Below are positions 6,867 through 59,170 of a stretch of 64,000 nucleotides of DNA, one piece after another (the stretch's first letter is position 1; each line of letters begins with the position of its first letter). The position numbers and the translations under genes are program-made. This DNA is from Leucoraja erinacea (taxonomy: Eukaryota), in NCBI RefSeq assembly GCF_028641065.1, contig NC_073410.1:13578001-13642000 (forward strand), given 5' to 3'. The notes under the pieces are model-generated. The model was not told the origin of the DNA. It searched no databases and saw only the letters and a list, made by a program, of their open reading frames with translations.

Positions 6867-9672
6867 TCGTGGAACGTCGTAGGAGTTCGTAGATTACCAC
6901 CATCTTGATTTTTTTTTTTTAGGTCCTTTAAACTCGGCAGAGGTTTTGAGATAAGTCGTGAAAGTTGGACAGGTCCTTTAGATCTGCCTTCATTCCTCCA
7001 GACCCCTCAGAATAGACTTGGAGAACTGCGTTGATACAAATCGCCAGCCTTGTCACGGCAGCTTAAATGTGGTGAAATAAATTAAGCAGATTAATCTCTT
7101 TAAGAATTGACGTCTCTAGATGTGGGCTAAACACAGCCGTTAATAAACAAAGCCAATTAGAGGCAGCAGAAGGTAGGGCAGGTAATTGAACAATTCAATG
7201 CACACTTGGCACTGGTTCCGAAAGAAGGGACTACAGTTCCTGGTGTACAAATTAAGACATAAAGTGCTGGAGTAACTCAGCGGGTCAGGCAGCATCTTTG
7301 GAGAACGTGGATAGGTGACGTTTTGGGTCTGAAGTTTTGAGCTCCTGTCCTGAAACTTTGCCTATCCATGTTCTCCAGAGATGCTGCCTGACCCGCTGAG
7401 TTACTCCAGCACTTTGTGTGCTTTTTCTTCAATAGTTTTACCTCCTCTTGAATTCGCTCCAGTGATCTAGCCTCCCCAAACCTCCAGGGGAGAGAATTCC
7501 AGAGAACCACCACCCCCTGAGGGAAGGACGTATGTGCCACCTGTTCTTATCCACCGCTGGATTATTTTGCCAGCACCCAACTCCATCTTGGTAACCAGGT
7601 AAGTCTACTGTTGATCGGCCGTGATGTTCATAGCAAGGGTTGGCAATGCCACTGTGACTCGACAGTGGCTCCACCTCCTCAATCGGAAGGTGAACAGTTC
7701 ACGGCCCCTTCCAGACACAAATGGGCTAATTGAAAGTGAGGACATGATCCCAGAAATAGTCAATTAAGAGTTCTCAAATGAAGGGAGTGAATGGAGTTTG
7801 TCTTAACATCTCCGACTCAAAAGGGTTCAAGATGGCAGATTCACAGAGTAGGGGAATCGGGAACCAGACTTGGAATTAAAGTGAGTCTGAAGAAGCATCT
7901 CGACCCGAATCATCATGTCTGAAGAAGGGTTTTGGCCCGAAACGTTGCCTATTTCCTTCGCTCCATAGATGCTGCTGCACCCGCTGAATTTCTCCAGCAT
8001 TTTTGTCTACCTTCAATTTTCCAGCATCTGCAGTTCTTTCTTAAACAACTCATCACCTATCCATGTTCTCTGGAGAAACTACCTGACCTGCTGAATTACT
8101 CCAACACTTTTTGTGGCCGTTTAATTTCTTTCACTTCTATCACCAAAAGCTTGCAGTGATTACAGCAATCTATTGGGGATATGGGGCCAAGCAGTGTGTT
8201 TCGAGTAACTGTTTGGATGTAAATCTTCCATCAAAACTGAAAGCCAAGCAAAATCCTGTATAATAGAGAAAAATAAACATGGGGTGGAAATGACGCATAG
8301 TTCACTAATACCAGAGAATGCTGCATTACTGCAAACTCTCAAACAGTCGAAAACAGTGTTTATCTTGTTACTGACTGCAAGGGATAACAAACCCTAGTCA
8401 AAACTATTAATAGGGAGAATATAGACTCCTAAAATGTTATTTGAAAAACAACTTGGAATTACATGTACTCTGCTGCAAACAAACAGATCATACAGAAGAT
8501 GATAGATTATTTTATCTAATCTAATGCTCCACTACTGATGACAATAGACAATAGACAATAGGTGCAGGAGTAGGCCATTCGGCCCTTCGAGCCAGCACCG
8601 CCATTCAATGTGATCATGGCTGATCATCCCCAATCAGTACCCCGTTCCTGCCTTCTCCCCATATCCCCTGACTCCGCTATTTTTAAGAGCCCTATCTAGC
8701 TCTCTCTGACACGAACTGCTGGAGTAACTCCGCGCATCAGGCAGCAACTCTGGAGAAAAAGGACTGGTCCCTTCACACGGTCTCGACCCAAAACGTCACC
8801 CATCCTTTTTCTCCAGAGATGCTGCCTGACCTGCTGAGTTACTCCAGTACTTTGTGCCTATCTTCGGTATAACCCAGCCTCTTACACAGATCATACATAC
8901 CGGCCCGTACTACAGTGGTTTATGAAATATGCTGAGCTCCAAATCCTAAACTCATTTGTCGTGATTCCCTGTTGTTTCGTCCGACCAGTTAAGCCACCAA
9001 AAAAAGACACAAAGTGCTGGAGTAACTCAGCAGGTCAGGCAGCATCTCTGGAGAACATGGAGAGGTGACGTTTCGGGTTGGGACACCTCTTAAGACTGAT
9101 TGTATTGGGGGGGGGGGAAAGCTGGAAGCAAAGTGGGGCGGGAGAAAGGAGAACGTTTGCATCTATTTCAGTAACTAACTCCAAAGATAATTTATGGAAC
9201 ATTGATTTAACTCCCACTGCTAAATCTCTTTCATTTAATTTTCTATCTGTTCTCTTATTCTGGTTCCAACACCGACAGGAGTTTCCTTCAAATTATTGTG
9301 GCAAGAATAAAGAGATGAAGCAGGGCCATGGTGAGAAGGAGGAGGAAGAGAGGTCGTTTCAGGTAGTTTCAATCTAGCATAGTCCATGAACCATTGAATG
9401 TTACACAGTGGATCTCCCAGCAAGACACAGGTCTTTACTTTAGACTTTAGAAATACAGCATGGAAACAGGCCCTTCGGCCGATCGAGTCCGTGCTGACCA
9501 GTGATCGCCCCATACACGAGCACTATCCCACACACTAGGGACAATGTACAATTTTACTTTGGAGGAAACCGGAGCACCCGGGGAAAACCCACGCGGTCAC
9601 AGGGTGAACGTACAAACTCCATACATTCTAAAAAGTGGCCCTGTGCCTAAAAAGTAATAAGTTTAACTCAAC

Positions 9673-9773
9673 CTTCTCCAAAAGGGGTCATATTCCTCTT
9701 CTTCTGAAGAAGTCTTCTTTGGGGCCTTAATGGCCCTGGACTTTGCAAACAGAAACTGGGCCACAAGGTGCAT
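9673..9773 (-). CDS. Threonine dehydratase-like gene, first coding exon (MHLVAQFLFAKSRAIKAPKKTSSEEEEYDPFWR)
   Basis: ATG in context aaacATG at 9773; donor AG|gttgag; phase 2 joins exon 2 in frame (AG+T = Ser); the 'EEEEYDPFW' motif is recalled from fish homologues. Confidence 0.8.
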
Positions 9774-10394
9774 GTTTCCCAGGAGATGTGCGCAGAGGAG
9801 ACCACAAGACTGTCGTTGGCAGATATTTGATCTCTTCGAATGTTATATAAAAATAACAATGTCTAGTGCTTGAATCGATTCCCAACTTCAACACCAAGAT
9901 GACCCTCGACCGCACAGCTCTGTGTGAGGGTGAGACTGCCGCTGCTGTTATTTAAAGAGATTATTTCACCTGTCAAGCCGTCTCTGTCAATTTGAGAAAT
10001 CCTTCGTAATGCCTGACCTCCCCAATGAACAGCACAATTTAAAGCTTTGGAGATTTACCATTTCACTGAGGGGAGACCTTCTTAGAGATAGACACACAAT
10101 GCAGAAGTAACTCGGTGGGTCAGACCGTCTTAAAGAAGCATTTCTGACACGATTTTTCCAACTGCACGCTGCTTGATTCATGTGCATGTGGTTCAGTCTG
10201 AAGAAGGGTTTCGGCCTGAAACGTTGCCTATTTCCTTCGCTCCATAGATACTGCTGCACCCACTGAGTTTCTCCAGCACTTCTGTCTACCTTCGATTTTC
10301 CAGCATCTGCAGTTCCTTCTTAAACACATTATAGAATGAATTAAATGTTTGATTGTTTCAAAACATTCTGATACTCAGAATTCCTTTGATTCTT

Positions 10395-10700
10395 TACTTT
10401 TTGCTATAGAGATACAGCACGGAAACGGACCCTACGGCCCACCGAGTCCATGCCAACCAGCGATCATCCCGACACTAACACTATCCGACACACACTAGGG
10501 ACAATTTACAATTTTACTGAAGCCAACTAATCTATAAACCTGTACATCTTTGGAGTCTGGGAGGAAATCGGAGCACCCAGAGAAAACCCACGCAGTCTCA
10601 GGGAGAACATACAAACTCCATTCAGACAGCACCCATAGTCAGGATTAAACGTGGTTCTCTGATGCTGAAAGGCAGCAACTCTACCACTGTACCACTTAAT
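10395..10700 (-). mobile_element. tRNA-derived SINE (HE1/V-SINE-like)
   Basis: Reverse complement of the SINE head and core ('gggagaacatacaaactcca', 'ggcagcaactctacc'). Confidence 0.7.
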
Positions 10701-57362: not shown

Positions 57363-58562
57363 GGTTCATCGACAAACATGAGGGCTTGGGAATGTCAACA
57401 GGGCCTTGATCACTGGCTGTGTTCCAGTAACCAAAAGAACACCCTAACTGAGAACGTCATGACTCAACAATCCACTCAAACCACCACCAGCTGTAACCTG
57501 GGACCAAAGGACCCCGGCTATTATAGAGACCAGGCCTGGGGTAAACGGCAGGGCCTGGAGCACTGGCTGCTTCCCAACAAGCAGAAGAATGATGCAACGG
57601 AGAAAGCAACTGTACGACAATACTTTAATTCAACCCGTGAGAACCACACTGACATGAATTACTACAGGCTGCAGGCGTGGGGGCATCGTCAGAGCCTTGA
57701 GCAGTGGCTCATCCCTGTTGAGAAGAAATCTGATCCTTCCAAGGAAGCTCCTGTTTGTGAGCGTATTGAGTCGTCCAGTAGTTCGTCCACCTTTGAGCTA
57801 GTAGAGCAATTTGACATGGAGGTCGTGGACAAAGAGGAGAAAGAGCAGAAGCCACCTAATGCAAAGACGGGTGGCTCCAATGTGAAGCATGCACGTGTAG
57901 AGAAAATGAGCGACAACAGCAGCGATAAAGGCAAGTGGAAATCCATAACCCAGCCATTCAGAGAGAGGTTTATTGCCAGCGAGTGGCTTTTGAAGTCCAA
58001 GTCTGAATCCTGCATTAGTTGCTGTGGAGTTCAAACAAAAGCCATCGAAATCGAAAATCTTGGGAAGCTGAAGTGCCTGAGTGAGCACCAGAATGCCAAG
58101 AAGTTGCCACCAGCGTCACCGAATGAAGCACGGCACCTTCAGCAGTCAATGCTGCCAATTCAAGTTGCCGACGTGTGCAAGGCTAACGAGCCCTGCAGCA
58201 GCTTCTCTGCGTGTGTGTGTGGACGGAGCTGCGAGAAGGAAGCCATCAACGAGTGGCTACTCAAGCAAGGAGGGAAGGACAAGAATGGAGTGCAGACGGG
58301 CCAGCCGAACAAAGGCATCACAGCGCCAGACAAGAGCGAGTTAGACCAGTGGTTGCACCCCCTGACAAAATCGGCAAGAGAGCCACTACCCCTGGAGTCT
58401 TCTGTCAACGTTCCCGTGAAGTCACTAGAATATCTGAAGTCAAACACACCAGTCACCACGCCCATGAATCTGGATAAGTGGATGCACAAAATCCCCGCCG
58501 GTCCTGAGAAGGGAGCAGAGCTTGAAGTGGAAAATAAATTTTTGTTGCGCAAGAAAGCACAA
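57363..58562 (+). CDS. NCOA4: NCOA4 large coding exon 7 (400 codons)
   Basis: Acceptor ttttcccacag, donor CAA|gtaaga; contains [27 protein letters not shown]...CEKEA..EWLLK.GGKDKNG and LLRKKAQ. Confidence 0.97.
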
Positions 58563-58974
58563 GTAAGAATCTCTCCTCCCTTCCTGCTCCAGAAACTAGC
58601 TAGAGTTATGGTAATGTGGTCGCTATTTGTAAACATTGCAATAGATTTATTCATATTTATCACTTGGTTCTGTAGGTAACTAATTCAATATTGGGTGAGA
58701 AAAGCAATAGCCAGTGCAAAACAGAGTACTGCCCTAATCGTGTTGTCATTGACACTTTCTGAAATGCCCACTGCTGAAACAGGTCGTATACAGGGCCCCA
58801 CTATCGGAAAGAGACCTACTACTCTAGTGGATATTGATGGAGACGCAAGGGACGGCAGATGCTGGGATCTTAAGCCAAACATATATTAATGGATATTCAA
58901 TTGTTCTTTATACCTTTTCATAAAGCTAGTTTCACTCTCCCCGGCTCTCAGTCTGAAGAAGAGTCTCGACCCGA

Positions 58975-59170
58975 ATCGTCACCTATTCCTTTTCTCCAGA
59001 GATGCTGTCTGACCTGTTGAGTTACTCCAGTACTCTGTGAAACGTCACCTATCCATATTCTCCAGGGACACTGTCTGACCCGCTAAGTTACTCCAGCACT
59101 CGGTGAAATGTCACCTATCCATGTTCTCCACAGATGCTGTCTGACCCGCTGAGTTACTACAGCATTCTGT
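58975..59170 (+). repeat. Three tandem units of about 62-65 bp from the Penelope-derived short repeat
   Basis: 'gtcacctat..ttctcca..ga..ctgtctgacc..t.agttact.cag' occurs three times head to tail. Confidence 0.75.

What the first reader, a model, noticed from the sequence alone, without database searches (positions are those of the whole stretch)
7919..58985. Dispersed short mobile elements carrying a minimal hammerhead-ribozyme-like core
Seen: CTGAAGA-A-[GGGTC-TC-GACCC or GGGTT-TC-GGCCC hairpin]-GAAAC-GT(C/T) recurs many times. Examples: 7919-7946 (+), 10198-10225 (+), 15888-15915 (-, intact GTC), 31543-31569 (+, just 3' of a GIY-YIG Penelope fragment), about 43949-43978 (-), with degenerate copies near 16398, 16914, 20933, 21154, 44597 and 58953. 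Many sit in 100-200 bp units with variable TSDs (12 bp 13927/14066, 10 bp 38563/38667, 17 bp 43835/44013, 15 bp 55923/56020). Known: the hammerhead core is CUGANGA-stem II-GAAA-stem III-UH, and Penelope-like elements carry minimal hammerheads whose palindromic stem III (here ACGT) forms by dimerisation. The two stem II variants keep base pairing. Inference: a high-copy, non-autonomous ribozyme-bearing retroelement family mobilised by Penelope, lying in introns of all three genes. Stem I looks very short and there is one extra A after the core, so activity is unproven.
Basis: partly seen in the sequence, partly recalled or inferred. Interest (0 to 1): 0.75.

Follow-up and report, generated by a model that had tools for sequence, protein, structure and literature searches.

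The report
Penelope retrotransposon ends with minimal hammerheads
About a tenth of this stretch of skate DNA consists of short, decaying end-pieces of Penelope-like jumping genes, each carrying the tiny hammerhead-ribozyme motif already known from such elements in other animals; it is likely an ordinary new member of that class, and self-cutting is untested.

Summary
The motif is real and commoner than reported: 65 fragments, 9.7% of the window, which is little-skate DNA. It fits the published minimal type I hammerhead of Penelope-like elements (PLEs); the extra A is a normal feature of that class. Two copies directly follow the endonuclease end and 3' UTR of Neptune-type PLEs, and thousands of public RNA reads join the motif to similar UTR sequence. 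The short units show PLE insertion hallmarks: variable target-site duplications, an optional 35-40 bp tail and 11 head-to-head pairs. They are best read as PLE terminal-repeat stubs, not as a proven separate non-autonomous family. Copies decay neutrally: 11 of 37 keep an intact core, which is no better conserved than the tail, and stem II has no compensatory change. They were copied from uncut RNA: 1 of 63 starts at the predicted cut, whereas 23 of 63 start at the ribozyme's 5' edge. That pile-up is the one unusual feature. It may mark run-off reverse transcription from a fixed RNA 5' end. No RNA start or end peak was seen in two RNA runs. New member of a known kind.

The parts
30831..31326 (+). 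Broken C-terminal coding end of a Neptune-type PLE (cysteine linker, GIY-YIG endonuclease), to the stop codon
   Evidence: tblastn of homologues, 50-68% identity; homologues carry Pfam GIY-YIG and RVT_1; the window fragment alone has no GIY-YIG Pfam hit
31327..31538 (+). 3' UTR of that PLE, ending in a pyrimidine tract and CAG just before the ribozyme
   Evidence: sequence
31539..31664 (+). Terminal unit of that PLE: minimal hammerhead (core 31542-31569, intact) plus long tail
30676..30756 (-). Short inverted piece of PLE coding sequence upstream of the 30831 remnant
   Evidence: tblastn, E about 1e-5
29166..29740 (+). Second PLE 3' end from a different lineage: coding end to 29375, about 230 nt UTR, decayed hammerhead at 29607, tail
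51792..52021 (+). Old PLE coding remnant joined to a decayed terminal unit, in an NCOA4 intron
7917..8049 (+). Short copy, subfamily B, starts at the ribozyme edge, long tail, GUU at the predicted cut
10195..10328 (+). Short copy, subfamily B, long tail, GUU at the predicted cut
13927..14077 (+). Short copy, subfamily B, with a 12-bp target-site duplication
15785..15919 (-). Best-preserved ribozyme copy (intact core, all stem II pairs, CG palindrome, GUC); subfamily B
16318..16644 (.). Composite insertion: inverted piece, copy with UTR stub (core 16398), tandem copy with long tail
16912..17009 (+). Short copy, subfamily B, short tail, possible 7-bp duplication (not above chance)
20931..21022 (+). 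Short copy, subfamily B, short tail, small deletion at the predicted cut
21123..21245 (+). Copy with about 30 nt of PLE UTR upstream of the core (21154)
38563..38676 (-). Short copy with a 10-bp duplication, short tail, decayed core
40031..40218 (.). Head-to-head pair enclosed by one 17-bp duplication, so a single insertion event
43835..44029 (-). Copy with about 35 nt of PLE UTR, long tail and a 17-bp duplication
44942..45154 (.). Head-to-head pair enclosed by a 9-bp direct repeat
46616..46740 (-). Short copy starting at the ribozyme edge, 14-bp duplication with one mismatch
47057..47398 (.). Head-to-head pair followed by a tandem copy
58922..59189 (+). Copy with UTR stub (core 58953, broken) followed by two more 66-bp units that hold only the 3' half of the ribozyme; NCOA4 intron
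1118..1306 (.). Head-to-head pair joined at the ribozyme 5' edge through a short microhomology with the stem II arm
61667..61774 (+). Subfamily B copy lacking the first core bases, 10-bp duplication, downstream of the NCOA4 stop codon

Best explanation
The repeats are terminal-repeat-plus-tail pieces of several Neptune-type Penelope-like retrotransposon lineages of the skate, likely pasted in by the element's own reverse transcriptase and endonuclease from uncut RNA, and now decaying neutrally. Shown: the unit is the 3' end of two PLE remnants; it has two preferred 3' ends about 35-40 bp apart; many copies have target-site duplications or head-to-head partners; 5' ends cluster at the ribozyme's 5' edge and almost never at its predicted cut. 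Inferred from the anole PLE work: the enzyme nicks DNA and starts copying at one of two internal sites about 60 or 100 nt downstream of the cut. Copying that continues upstream gives ordinary 5'-truncated copies with UTR or coding sequence. Copying that stops at the ribozyme edge gives the 90-135 bp units. My preferred reason for the stop (about 45%) is a fixed RNA 5' end there, so that copying from the 5' terminal repeat runs off the RNA; the alternatives are a splice acceptor at the same place or a stall at the structure. The ribozyme is predicted to be weak (2-bp stem I, no stem III as a monomer, a competing fold), would need a dimer or protein help, and likely matters only for the master elements, not for these copies.
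For: Two PLE ends with coding sequence, UTR, ribozyme and tail in order. Between them the ribozyme is 83% identical (29 of 35), the tail 67% and the UTR 55% against 50% for shuffles (a single pair). RNA reads continuing from the ribozyme into pyrimidine-rich UTR-like sequence: 3,342 at 15919 and 2,595 at 16393 in run X22. 3' ends: 27 of 63 at +52..72 and 27 of 63 at +90..102 from the cut; sharp end at 16644 with unrelated AT-rich flanks in RNA and DNA runs. Neighbouring fragments: 11 head-to-head, 1 tail-to-tail, 7 same strand. 5' starts: 23 of 63 within -5..+4 of C3, 1 of 63 at the cut (p about 1e-8 against a uniform model). Core against tail mismatch at non-CpG sites 27/363 against 143/1526, p=0.26. 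Literature: optional tail, internal initiation, cleavage not needed for insertion in vitro (PMC11167929); inverted 5' copies and tails (PMC8557442; PMC3846280); dispersed single min-HHRs ascribed to truncated PLEs (PMC4209133).
Against: No full-length PLE is in the window and no genome was held, so the 5' terminal repeat was never seen. None of the nine core-covering subfamily B copies runs into PLE UTR, which also fits an independent short element. No place where many RNA molecules begin was found in X24 or X22, so a fixed 5' end is not observed, although these libraries are poor for that. Part of the 5' pile-up could come from UTRs too divergent for the profile; the flanks of edge-starting copies are not pyrimidine-rich and often abut a duplication or an inverted partner, which limits but does not remove this. 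Arms of inverted pairs fall in the same subfamily in only 6 of 11 pairs (28% expected by chance; short arms are hard to assign).
Confidence: 0.75

Rival explanations
1. Subfamily B (and perhaps other edge-starting copies) is a self-propagating non-autonomous element of about 132 bp. It carries its own start at the ribozyme edge and the internal copying site, and borrows the PLE enzyme, much as a SINE borrows a LINE's.
For: B is the least diverged group (median 6.9% from its majority sequence against 8.9-12.9% for the A groups), differs from the A groups by 14-20%, and no B copy in the window has PLE UTR upstream. Non-autonomous PLE derivatives are published (Chlamys; retrozymes).
Against: The copy at 16386 has a B-like tail together with a UTR stub. 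B copies mix A-type and B-type stem II and cut-site letters, as expected from several source elements. Reads at the B copy 15919 continue into UTR-like sequence, though they may be A-type reads. Only 9 core-covering B copies were examined.
Confidence: 0.3
2. The units are retrozyme-like: the ribozyme cuts, the RNA circularises and the circle is the template for new copies.
For: A joint from tail +59 back to near the cut (16837 to 16781) is in 2,074 X24 reads and 271 X22 reads. The circle model is proposed for PLEs and shown for animal retrozymes.
Against: The same joint is in 21 and 33 DNA contigs, and the window's own 66-bp tandem lays with exactly these coordinates. That tandem lacks the first half of the core. 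Copies are mostly dispersed or inverted rather than tandem with a whole ribozyme per unit; 1 of 63 starts at the cut.
Confidence: 0.1
3. The motif has lost catalytic function even in the source elements and persists for another role, for example as promoter, splice-acceptor or protein-binding sequence.
For: Stem I is 2 bp with pairing probability about 0.01 in the best copy, and the 5' arm of stem II can pair instead with the strand after the cut. No compensatory change. No Rfam hammerhead match even at E 10. 7 of 32 ribozyme columns and 18 of 66 tail columns vary between subfamily majorities, so there is no clear contrast there.
Against: All catalytic positions, the extra base, the G-C closing pair and the CG palindrome are kept in the majority sequence. 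Published PLE hammerheads with 2-bp helix I exist, and the anole one cuts only with protein. The ribozyme is the best-kept part between two PLE lineages.
Confidence: 0.25
4. The intronic copies have been co-opted by the host to cut or shape pre-mRNAs.
For: The family is abundant in RNA: 85,772 of 12,895,792 reads in X24 and 69,330 of 17,596,208 in X22 were laid on the test stretch, which also holds about 80 bp of another repeat. Head-to-head pairs would form hairpins.
Against: The core decays at the same rate as the tail; 26 of 37 cores are broken; 96% and 92% of the laid reads run on into unrelated sequence, as passive passengers of host transcripts would; no end peaks.
Confidence: 0.03

Closest known systems
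Minimal type I hammerheads in PLE terminal repeats (Cervera and de la Pena 2014, PMC4209133; main text parts 1-2 of 4 and supplement parts 1-2 of 3 read)
   Same: Core, extra base between positions 9 and 10.1, G10.1-C11.1, two-base palindrome instead of stem III, NUH with C or U, location in the terminal repeat, mostly dispersed single copies.
   Different: No cartilaginous fish is among the 56 motifs of its Figure S3 or in Table S1. Helix I is at the short extreme (2 bp). Density here is about one fragment per kb, against 4,000-9,000 motifs per genome reported for coelacanth and Xenopus (different counting methods).
Poseidon element PAc of Anolis carolinensis (Frangieh et al. 2024, PMC11167929; parts 1-2 of 4 read)
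   Same: Hammerhead near the element end, two internal copying starts that define an optional tail, AC-rich end, AT-rich targets, uncut RNA as template, no RNA-seq ends at the cut.
   Different: The skate elements have the cysteine linker of Neptune type. The PAc reading frame starts inside the ribozyme; here no start codon is there. A pile-up of 5' ends at the ribozyme edge is not described in the parts read.
Penelope of Drosophila virilis (Schostak et al. 2008, PMC2377424; passages and Discussion read)
   Same: 2-bp helix I, and an intron end at the 5' side of helix I, matched here by a pyrimidine tract and CAG just before the core.
   Different: There the transcription start lies 46 nt before a 75-nt intron. 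Here neither a donor site nor a spliced read was shown.
Animal non-LTR retrozymes (PMC7229834, passages read; Li, Clavereau and Pollet 2026, 10.64898/2026.07.22.740005, parts 1-3 of 5 read, supplements closed)
   Same: Non-coding, hammerhead-bearing, related to PLE terminal repeats, with dispersed monomers; one chondrichthyan was in the 2026 survey (species not named in the text I saw).
   Different: Retrozymes are tandem units each with a whole ribozyme, usually canonical, expressed as circles. Here copies are dispersed or inverted, the ribozyme is minimal, and the only tandem lacks half the core.

Membership tests
PLE minimal type I hammerhead | CUGANGA-H, stem II, GAAA-N, NUH core in order | tested here: met
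   majority of 27 aligned copies; intact in 11 of 37 core-covering copies
PLE minimal type I hammerhead | Extra base between 9 and 10.1, and G10.1-C11.1 pair | tested here: met
   A in 35 of 37; G in 34 and C in 28 of 37, the C lost mainly by CpG decay; features as listed
PLE minimal type I hammerhead | Palindromic 15.2-16.2 allowing stem III in a dimer | tested here: met
   C in 30 and G in 25 of 37; predicted 4-bp intermolecular duplex of only -3.1 kcal/mol
PLE minimal type I hammerhead | Helix I closing the motif | tested here: inconclusive
   2 bp only, 74% of cells paired; 2-bp cases are in the published alignment
PLE minimal type I hammerhead | Located in the terminal repeat of a PLE | tested here: met
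PLE minimal type I hammerhead | Compensatory changes supporting the stems (supporting, not defining) | tested here: inconclusive
   0 of 5 stem II pairs with a two-sided change; covariation score below the shuffled mean. Neutral copies of one young family have little power to show it.
PLE minimal type I hammerhead | Self-cleavage as a dimer or with protein help | not testable with these tools
   no end peak in two RNA runs, a weak negative
Neptune-type EN+ Penelope-like element | C-terminal GIY-YIG endonuclease behind an RT | tested here: met
   close homologues of the fragment carry GIY-YIG and RVT_1; the RT core itself is not in the window remnants
Neptune-type EN+ Penelope-like element | CX2-5CxxC linker before the endonuclease | tested here: met
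   CX4CX2C in the 30915-31229 frame; feature from PMC8557442, shared with Nematis
Neptune-type EN+ Penelope-like element | Optional 30-40 bp tail, inverted 5'-truncated partner, variable target-site duplication | tested here: met
Neptune-type EN+ Penelope-like element | Placement in the Neptune clade by RT phylogeny; full-length tandem structure | not tested
   no labelled reference set and no full-length copy available
Animal non-LTR retrozyme | Tandem units each with a complete hammerhead | tested here: not met
   the only tandem array of the family found by TRF (58973-59171) lacks the first half of the core
Animal non-LTR retrozyme | Expressed as monomeric circular RNA | tested here: inconclusive
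   a backward joint exists in RNA but also in DNA

The most novel reading that the evidence does not exclude
The skate PLE transcript has a fixed 5' end at the first bases of its hammerhead. Because the enzyme starts copying internally, it then churns out 90-135 bp run-off copies that hold both the RNA start and the copying start and can spread by themselves. This would be a PLE-borne counterpart of SINEs that has grown to roughly a tenth of some skate gene regions. A second form of the case: the same edge is a splice acceptor whose use lengthens stem I and switches the ribozyme on.
Probability: 0.25. Interest if true: 0.55.

Novelty: new member of a known kind. Interest (0 to 1): 0.3.

Why it matters
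The class is published, so the ribozyme is no surprise. The value is as a resource: a very large, uniform set of PLE insertion junctions in a vertebrate, in which the open question of what the PLE hammerhead does can be addressed by counting ends. The window already indicates that copies come from uncut RNA and stop at the ribozyme's 5' edge. If that edge is a true RNA start, it would explain how PLEs give rise to short non-autonomous elements. The family may also be mislabelled or unlabelled in skate repeat annotations (not checked).

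Tried and rejected
Rfam: 0 matches at gathering score and no hammerhead family among 13 weak matches at E 10; minimal forms are evidently not captured, so this is weak evidence. No whole genome held. 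Exact-pattern scans of viral contigs and metagenome contigs found nothing; genome contigs was not scanned. No RNA holder was listed by the run index; RNA runs came by species label. Whole-unit folding shows no unusual stability (z from -1.5 to +1.8 for four full units). Compensatory covariation: rejected for this window. Selection on the core of inserted copies: not detected. An extra G before edge-starting copies (7 of 8 non-A cases) looked like a copied cap or splice junction; 4 of these are forced by microhomology with the inverted partner, leaving 3 of 4 (p=0.09), so I do not rely on it. The terminal unit as start of the PLE reading frame: open in one frame in some A copies but interrupted in others by inspection, so not pursued. 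Shared mutations between arms of inverted pairs: 0-3 per pair, no clear signal. The backward RNA joint as proof of circles: rejected because it is in DNA too. Strand bias in X22 was not interpreted, since the chemistry is not on record and internal priming on A-rich sequence could cause it. Third host gene: no homologue for the 14506-14655 frame; Pfam scan of 118 of 200 candidate frames gave only retroelement-type or weak hits. Lunse et al. 2017 (PMC5785218) is not held; seen only as cited in PMC6765202. Literature searches for this family in cartilaginous fish and for short or solo PLE copies listed no paper that describes it, judged from listings only; Repbase and Dfam could not be searched and may hold it. 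Earlier scan notes: none on this genome or sequence; one search listed other genomes only.

Full report
Source. The window is cartilaginous-fish DNA. Its NCOA4 exon is 100% identical over the aligned part to a protein named Leucoraja erinacea, whose coding exons map to 47633-61361. Two PALP-family exons lie on the minus strand at about 2.2-2.5 and 4.9-5.1 kb. A third gene could not be identified. No genome was held.

Observation. All five quoted motifs are present. A pattern with up to two mismatches occurs 26 times against 0.01 expected. Profiles built from 14 window copies find 65 fragments covering 6,203 bp, 9.7% of the window, and none on the reversed window. The four quoted direct repeats are exact. 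Seven of 46 insertion clusters have flanking repeats scoring 10 or more, against 2 of 296 random intervals; 28 of 46 have none above the threshold. Rfam has no hammerhead match.

Ribozyme anatomy. The majority sequence has the full catalytic core, one extra A, a 4-bp stem II with a 4-nt loop, GAAA, a CG palindrome and GUC or GUU. This matches the consensus of PLE minimal hammerheads, in which the extra base, the G-C closing pair and the palindrome are listed features and U at the cut is common (PMC4209133). Stem I is 2 bp; such cases are in the published alignment. In the best copy the predicted pairing probability is 0.22 for stem II and 0.01 for stem I, and in three of five copies tested the lowest-energy fold pairs the 5' arm of stem II with the strand after the cut instead. 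The dimer-forming duplex is predicted at only -3.1 kcal/mol. Activity is therefore expected to be weak and dependent on a dimer or a protein, as reported for S. mansoni and anole PLE ribozymes.

State of the copies. 37 of 65 fragments cover the core and 11 of these keep it intact. At non-CpG sites the core mismatches its subfamily majority in 27 of 363 cells and the tail in 143 of 1,526 (p=0.26). CpG decay removes G12 in 11 of 37. Inserted copies thus show no selection on catalysis. Four loosely defined subfamilies differ by 7-20%, with median divergence of 7-13% within them; assignment of short pieces is uncertain.

Link to Penelope. The frame at 30915-31229 has 43 homologues, the best from sharks and rays; several carry GIY-YIG and RT Pfam domains, though the window fragment alone scores no GIY-YIG hit. 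It has the cysteine linker that marks Neptune and Nematis elements. Two remnants show coding end, stop, about 215-230 nt UTR, ribozyme and tail in order (30831-31664 and 29166-29740), and a third old piece lies at 51792-52021. Between the first two, identity is 70% for the coding end, 55% for the UTR (shuffles 50%), 83% for the ribozyme and 67% for the tail. This one pair hints at constraint in source elements. In public RNA run X22, 3,342 and 2,595 reads continue from the ribozyme into pyrimidine-rich sequence resembling that UTR.

Insertion signature. With a profile that reaches 33 nt upstream of the core, 3' ends fall in two groups: 27 of 63 at +52..72 and 27 of 63 at +90..102 from the predicted cut. 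The long form ends in an AC-rich stretch followed by unrelated flanks. This is the optional 30-40 bp tail of PLEs, explained in the anole element by two internal starts of reverse transcription. Of 19 adjacent fragment pairs, 11 are head-to-head, 1 tail-to-tail and 7 on the same strand; one head-to-head pair is enclosed by a 17-bp duplication. Head-to-head partners are typical of PLEs. Four of the ten junctions printed join the ribozyme's 5' edge to an internal site through 3-4 shared bases.

The unusual feature. 23 of 63 fragments start within -5..+4 of C3, 19 start further upstream, and 1 starts at the cut. Copies that keep the whole core were necessarily made from RNA not cut at that site, or re-joined, which agrees with the anole result that cleavage is not needed for insertion. 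Why copying stops at the ribozyme's 5' edge is not shown. Three readings fit: (a) a transcription start there (the sequence resembles a Pol II initiator; motif recalled, not tested), so that internal initiation in the 5' terminal repeat runs off the RNA and yields the short unit directly; (b) a splice acceptor, as in D. virilis Penelope, where the intron ends at helix I, matched here by a pyrimidine tract and CAG in nine copies with UTR; (c) a stall at the structure. I put these at roughly 45, 25 and 30%. Divergent UTRs could inflate the peak, but edge-starting copies have non-pyrimidine flanks and often abut a duplication or partner.

Expression. On 15700-17060, 85,772 of 12,895,792 reads (X24) and 69,330 of 17,596,208 (X22) were laid at 82% likeness; the stretch includes about 80 bp of another repeat. 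96% and 92% of them run on into unlike sequence, and no place had many starts or ends. This looks like passive transcription inside host RNAs. The absence of ends is weak evidence in such libraries. About 425,000 contigs were laid in each of two DNA runs with different organism labels, which shows abundance in both but is no copy number. A backward joint (16837 to 16781) is in 2,074 X24 reads and 271 X22 reads, and also in 21 and 33 DNA contigs. The window's 66-bp tandem at 58973-59171 lays with the same coordinates, so it is not evidence of circles; its high share in RNA remains unexplained.

Comparison and verdict. It works like, and by every testable feature is, a PLE terminal-repeat minimal hammerhead on Neptune-type elements. 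It fails the tandem test for retrozymes. The 2014 survey lists no cartilaginous fish; the 2026 preprint includes one unnamed chondrichthyan, and its closed supplements may bear on this family. Eight literature searches listed no description of the skate family or of the 5'-edge pile-up, but Repbase and Dfam were out of reach. New member of a known kind; interest 0.3.

Noticed in passing
window 58973-59171 and joint 16837-16781: A 66-bp tandem made of the 3' half of the ribozyme plus the short tail; a joint with the same coordinates is far commoner in RNA reads than in DNA contigs.
   Followed up: partly
window 61667-61774 (+): A subfamily B copy about 310 bp after the NCOA4 stop and before the first poly(A)-like hexamer (62522), so probably inside the NCOA4 3' UTR; its core lacks the first bases.
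   Followed up: partly
joints 16644 to 16830 and 16839 on opposite strands: Tail-to-tail junctions between a long-tail and a short-tail end in 34-61 DNA contigs per run, suggesting insertion at or into another copy's tail.
   Followed up: no
window 1118-1306, 3266-3410, 7225-7420, 47057-47273: Head-to-head junctions that reuse the same 3-4 bases at the ribozyme's 5' edge; in RNA these pairs would form long hairpins and could be editing substrates.
   Followed up: partly
window 31937-32812 (-): A proline-rich open frame with a poly-G run, beginning with a stretch that looks like an EF-hand loop (by eye); no Pfam hit.
   Followed up: partly
window 14001-15000 and 45001-46000: CpG-rich kilobases, probably promoters; the first overlaps a frame resembling a signal peptide (14506-14655) with no homologue found.
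   Followed up: partly
window 12454-13293 (-): A 279-codon open frame with an RNase H domain, likely the 3' part of a LINE.
   Followed up: no
window 22373-22895, 28402-28698, 40463-40874: Fragments of another retroelement; two carry the Pfam ALKBH8_N domain.
   Followed up: no
window 63081-63674, 14886-15258, 42173-42716 and others: Many fragments of a CR1-like LINE 3' end and of SINE-like repeats (family names by eye and recall); about 8.3 kb of other repeats by self-comparison.
   Followed up: no
window about 1600-2050: A run of 448 N between simple repeats: an assembly gap.
   Followed up: no
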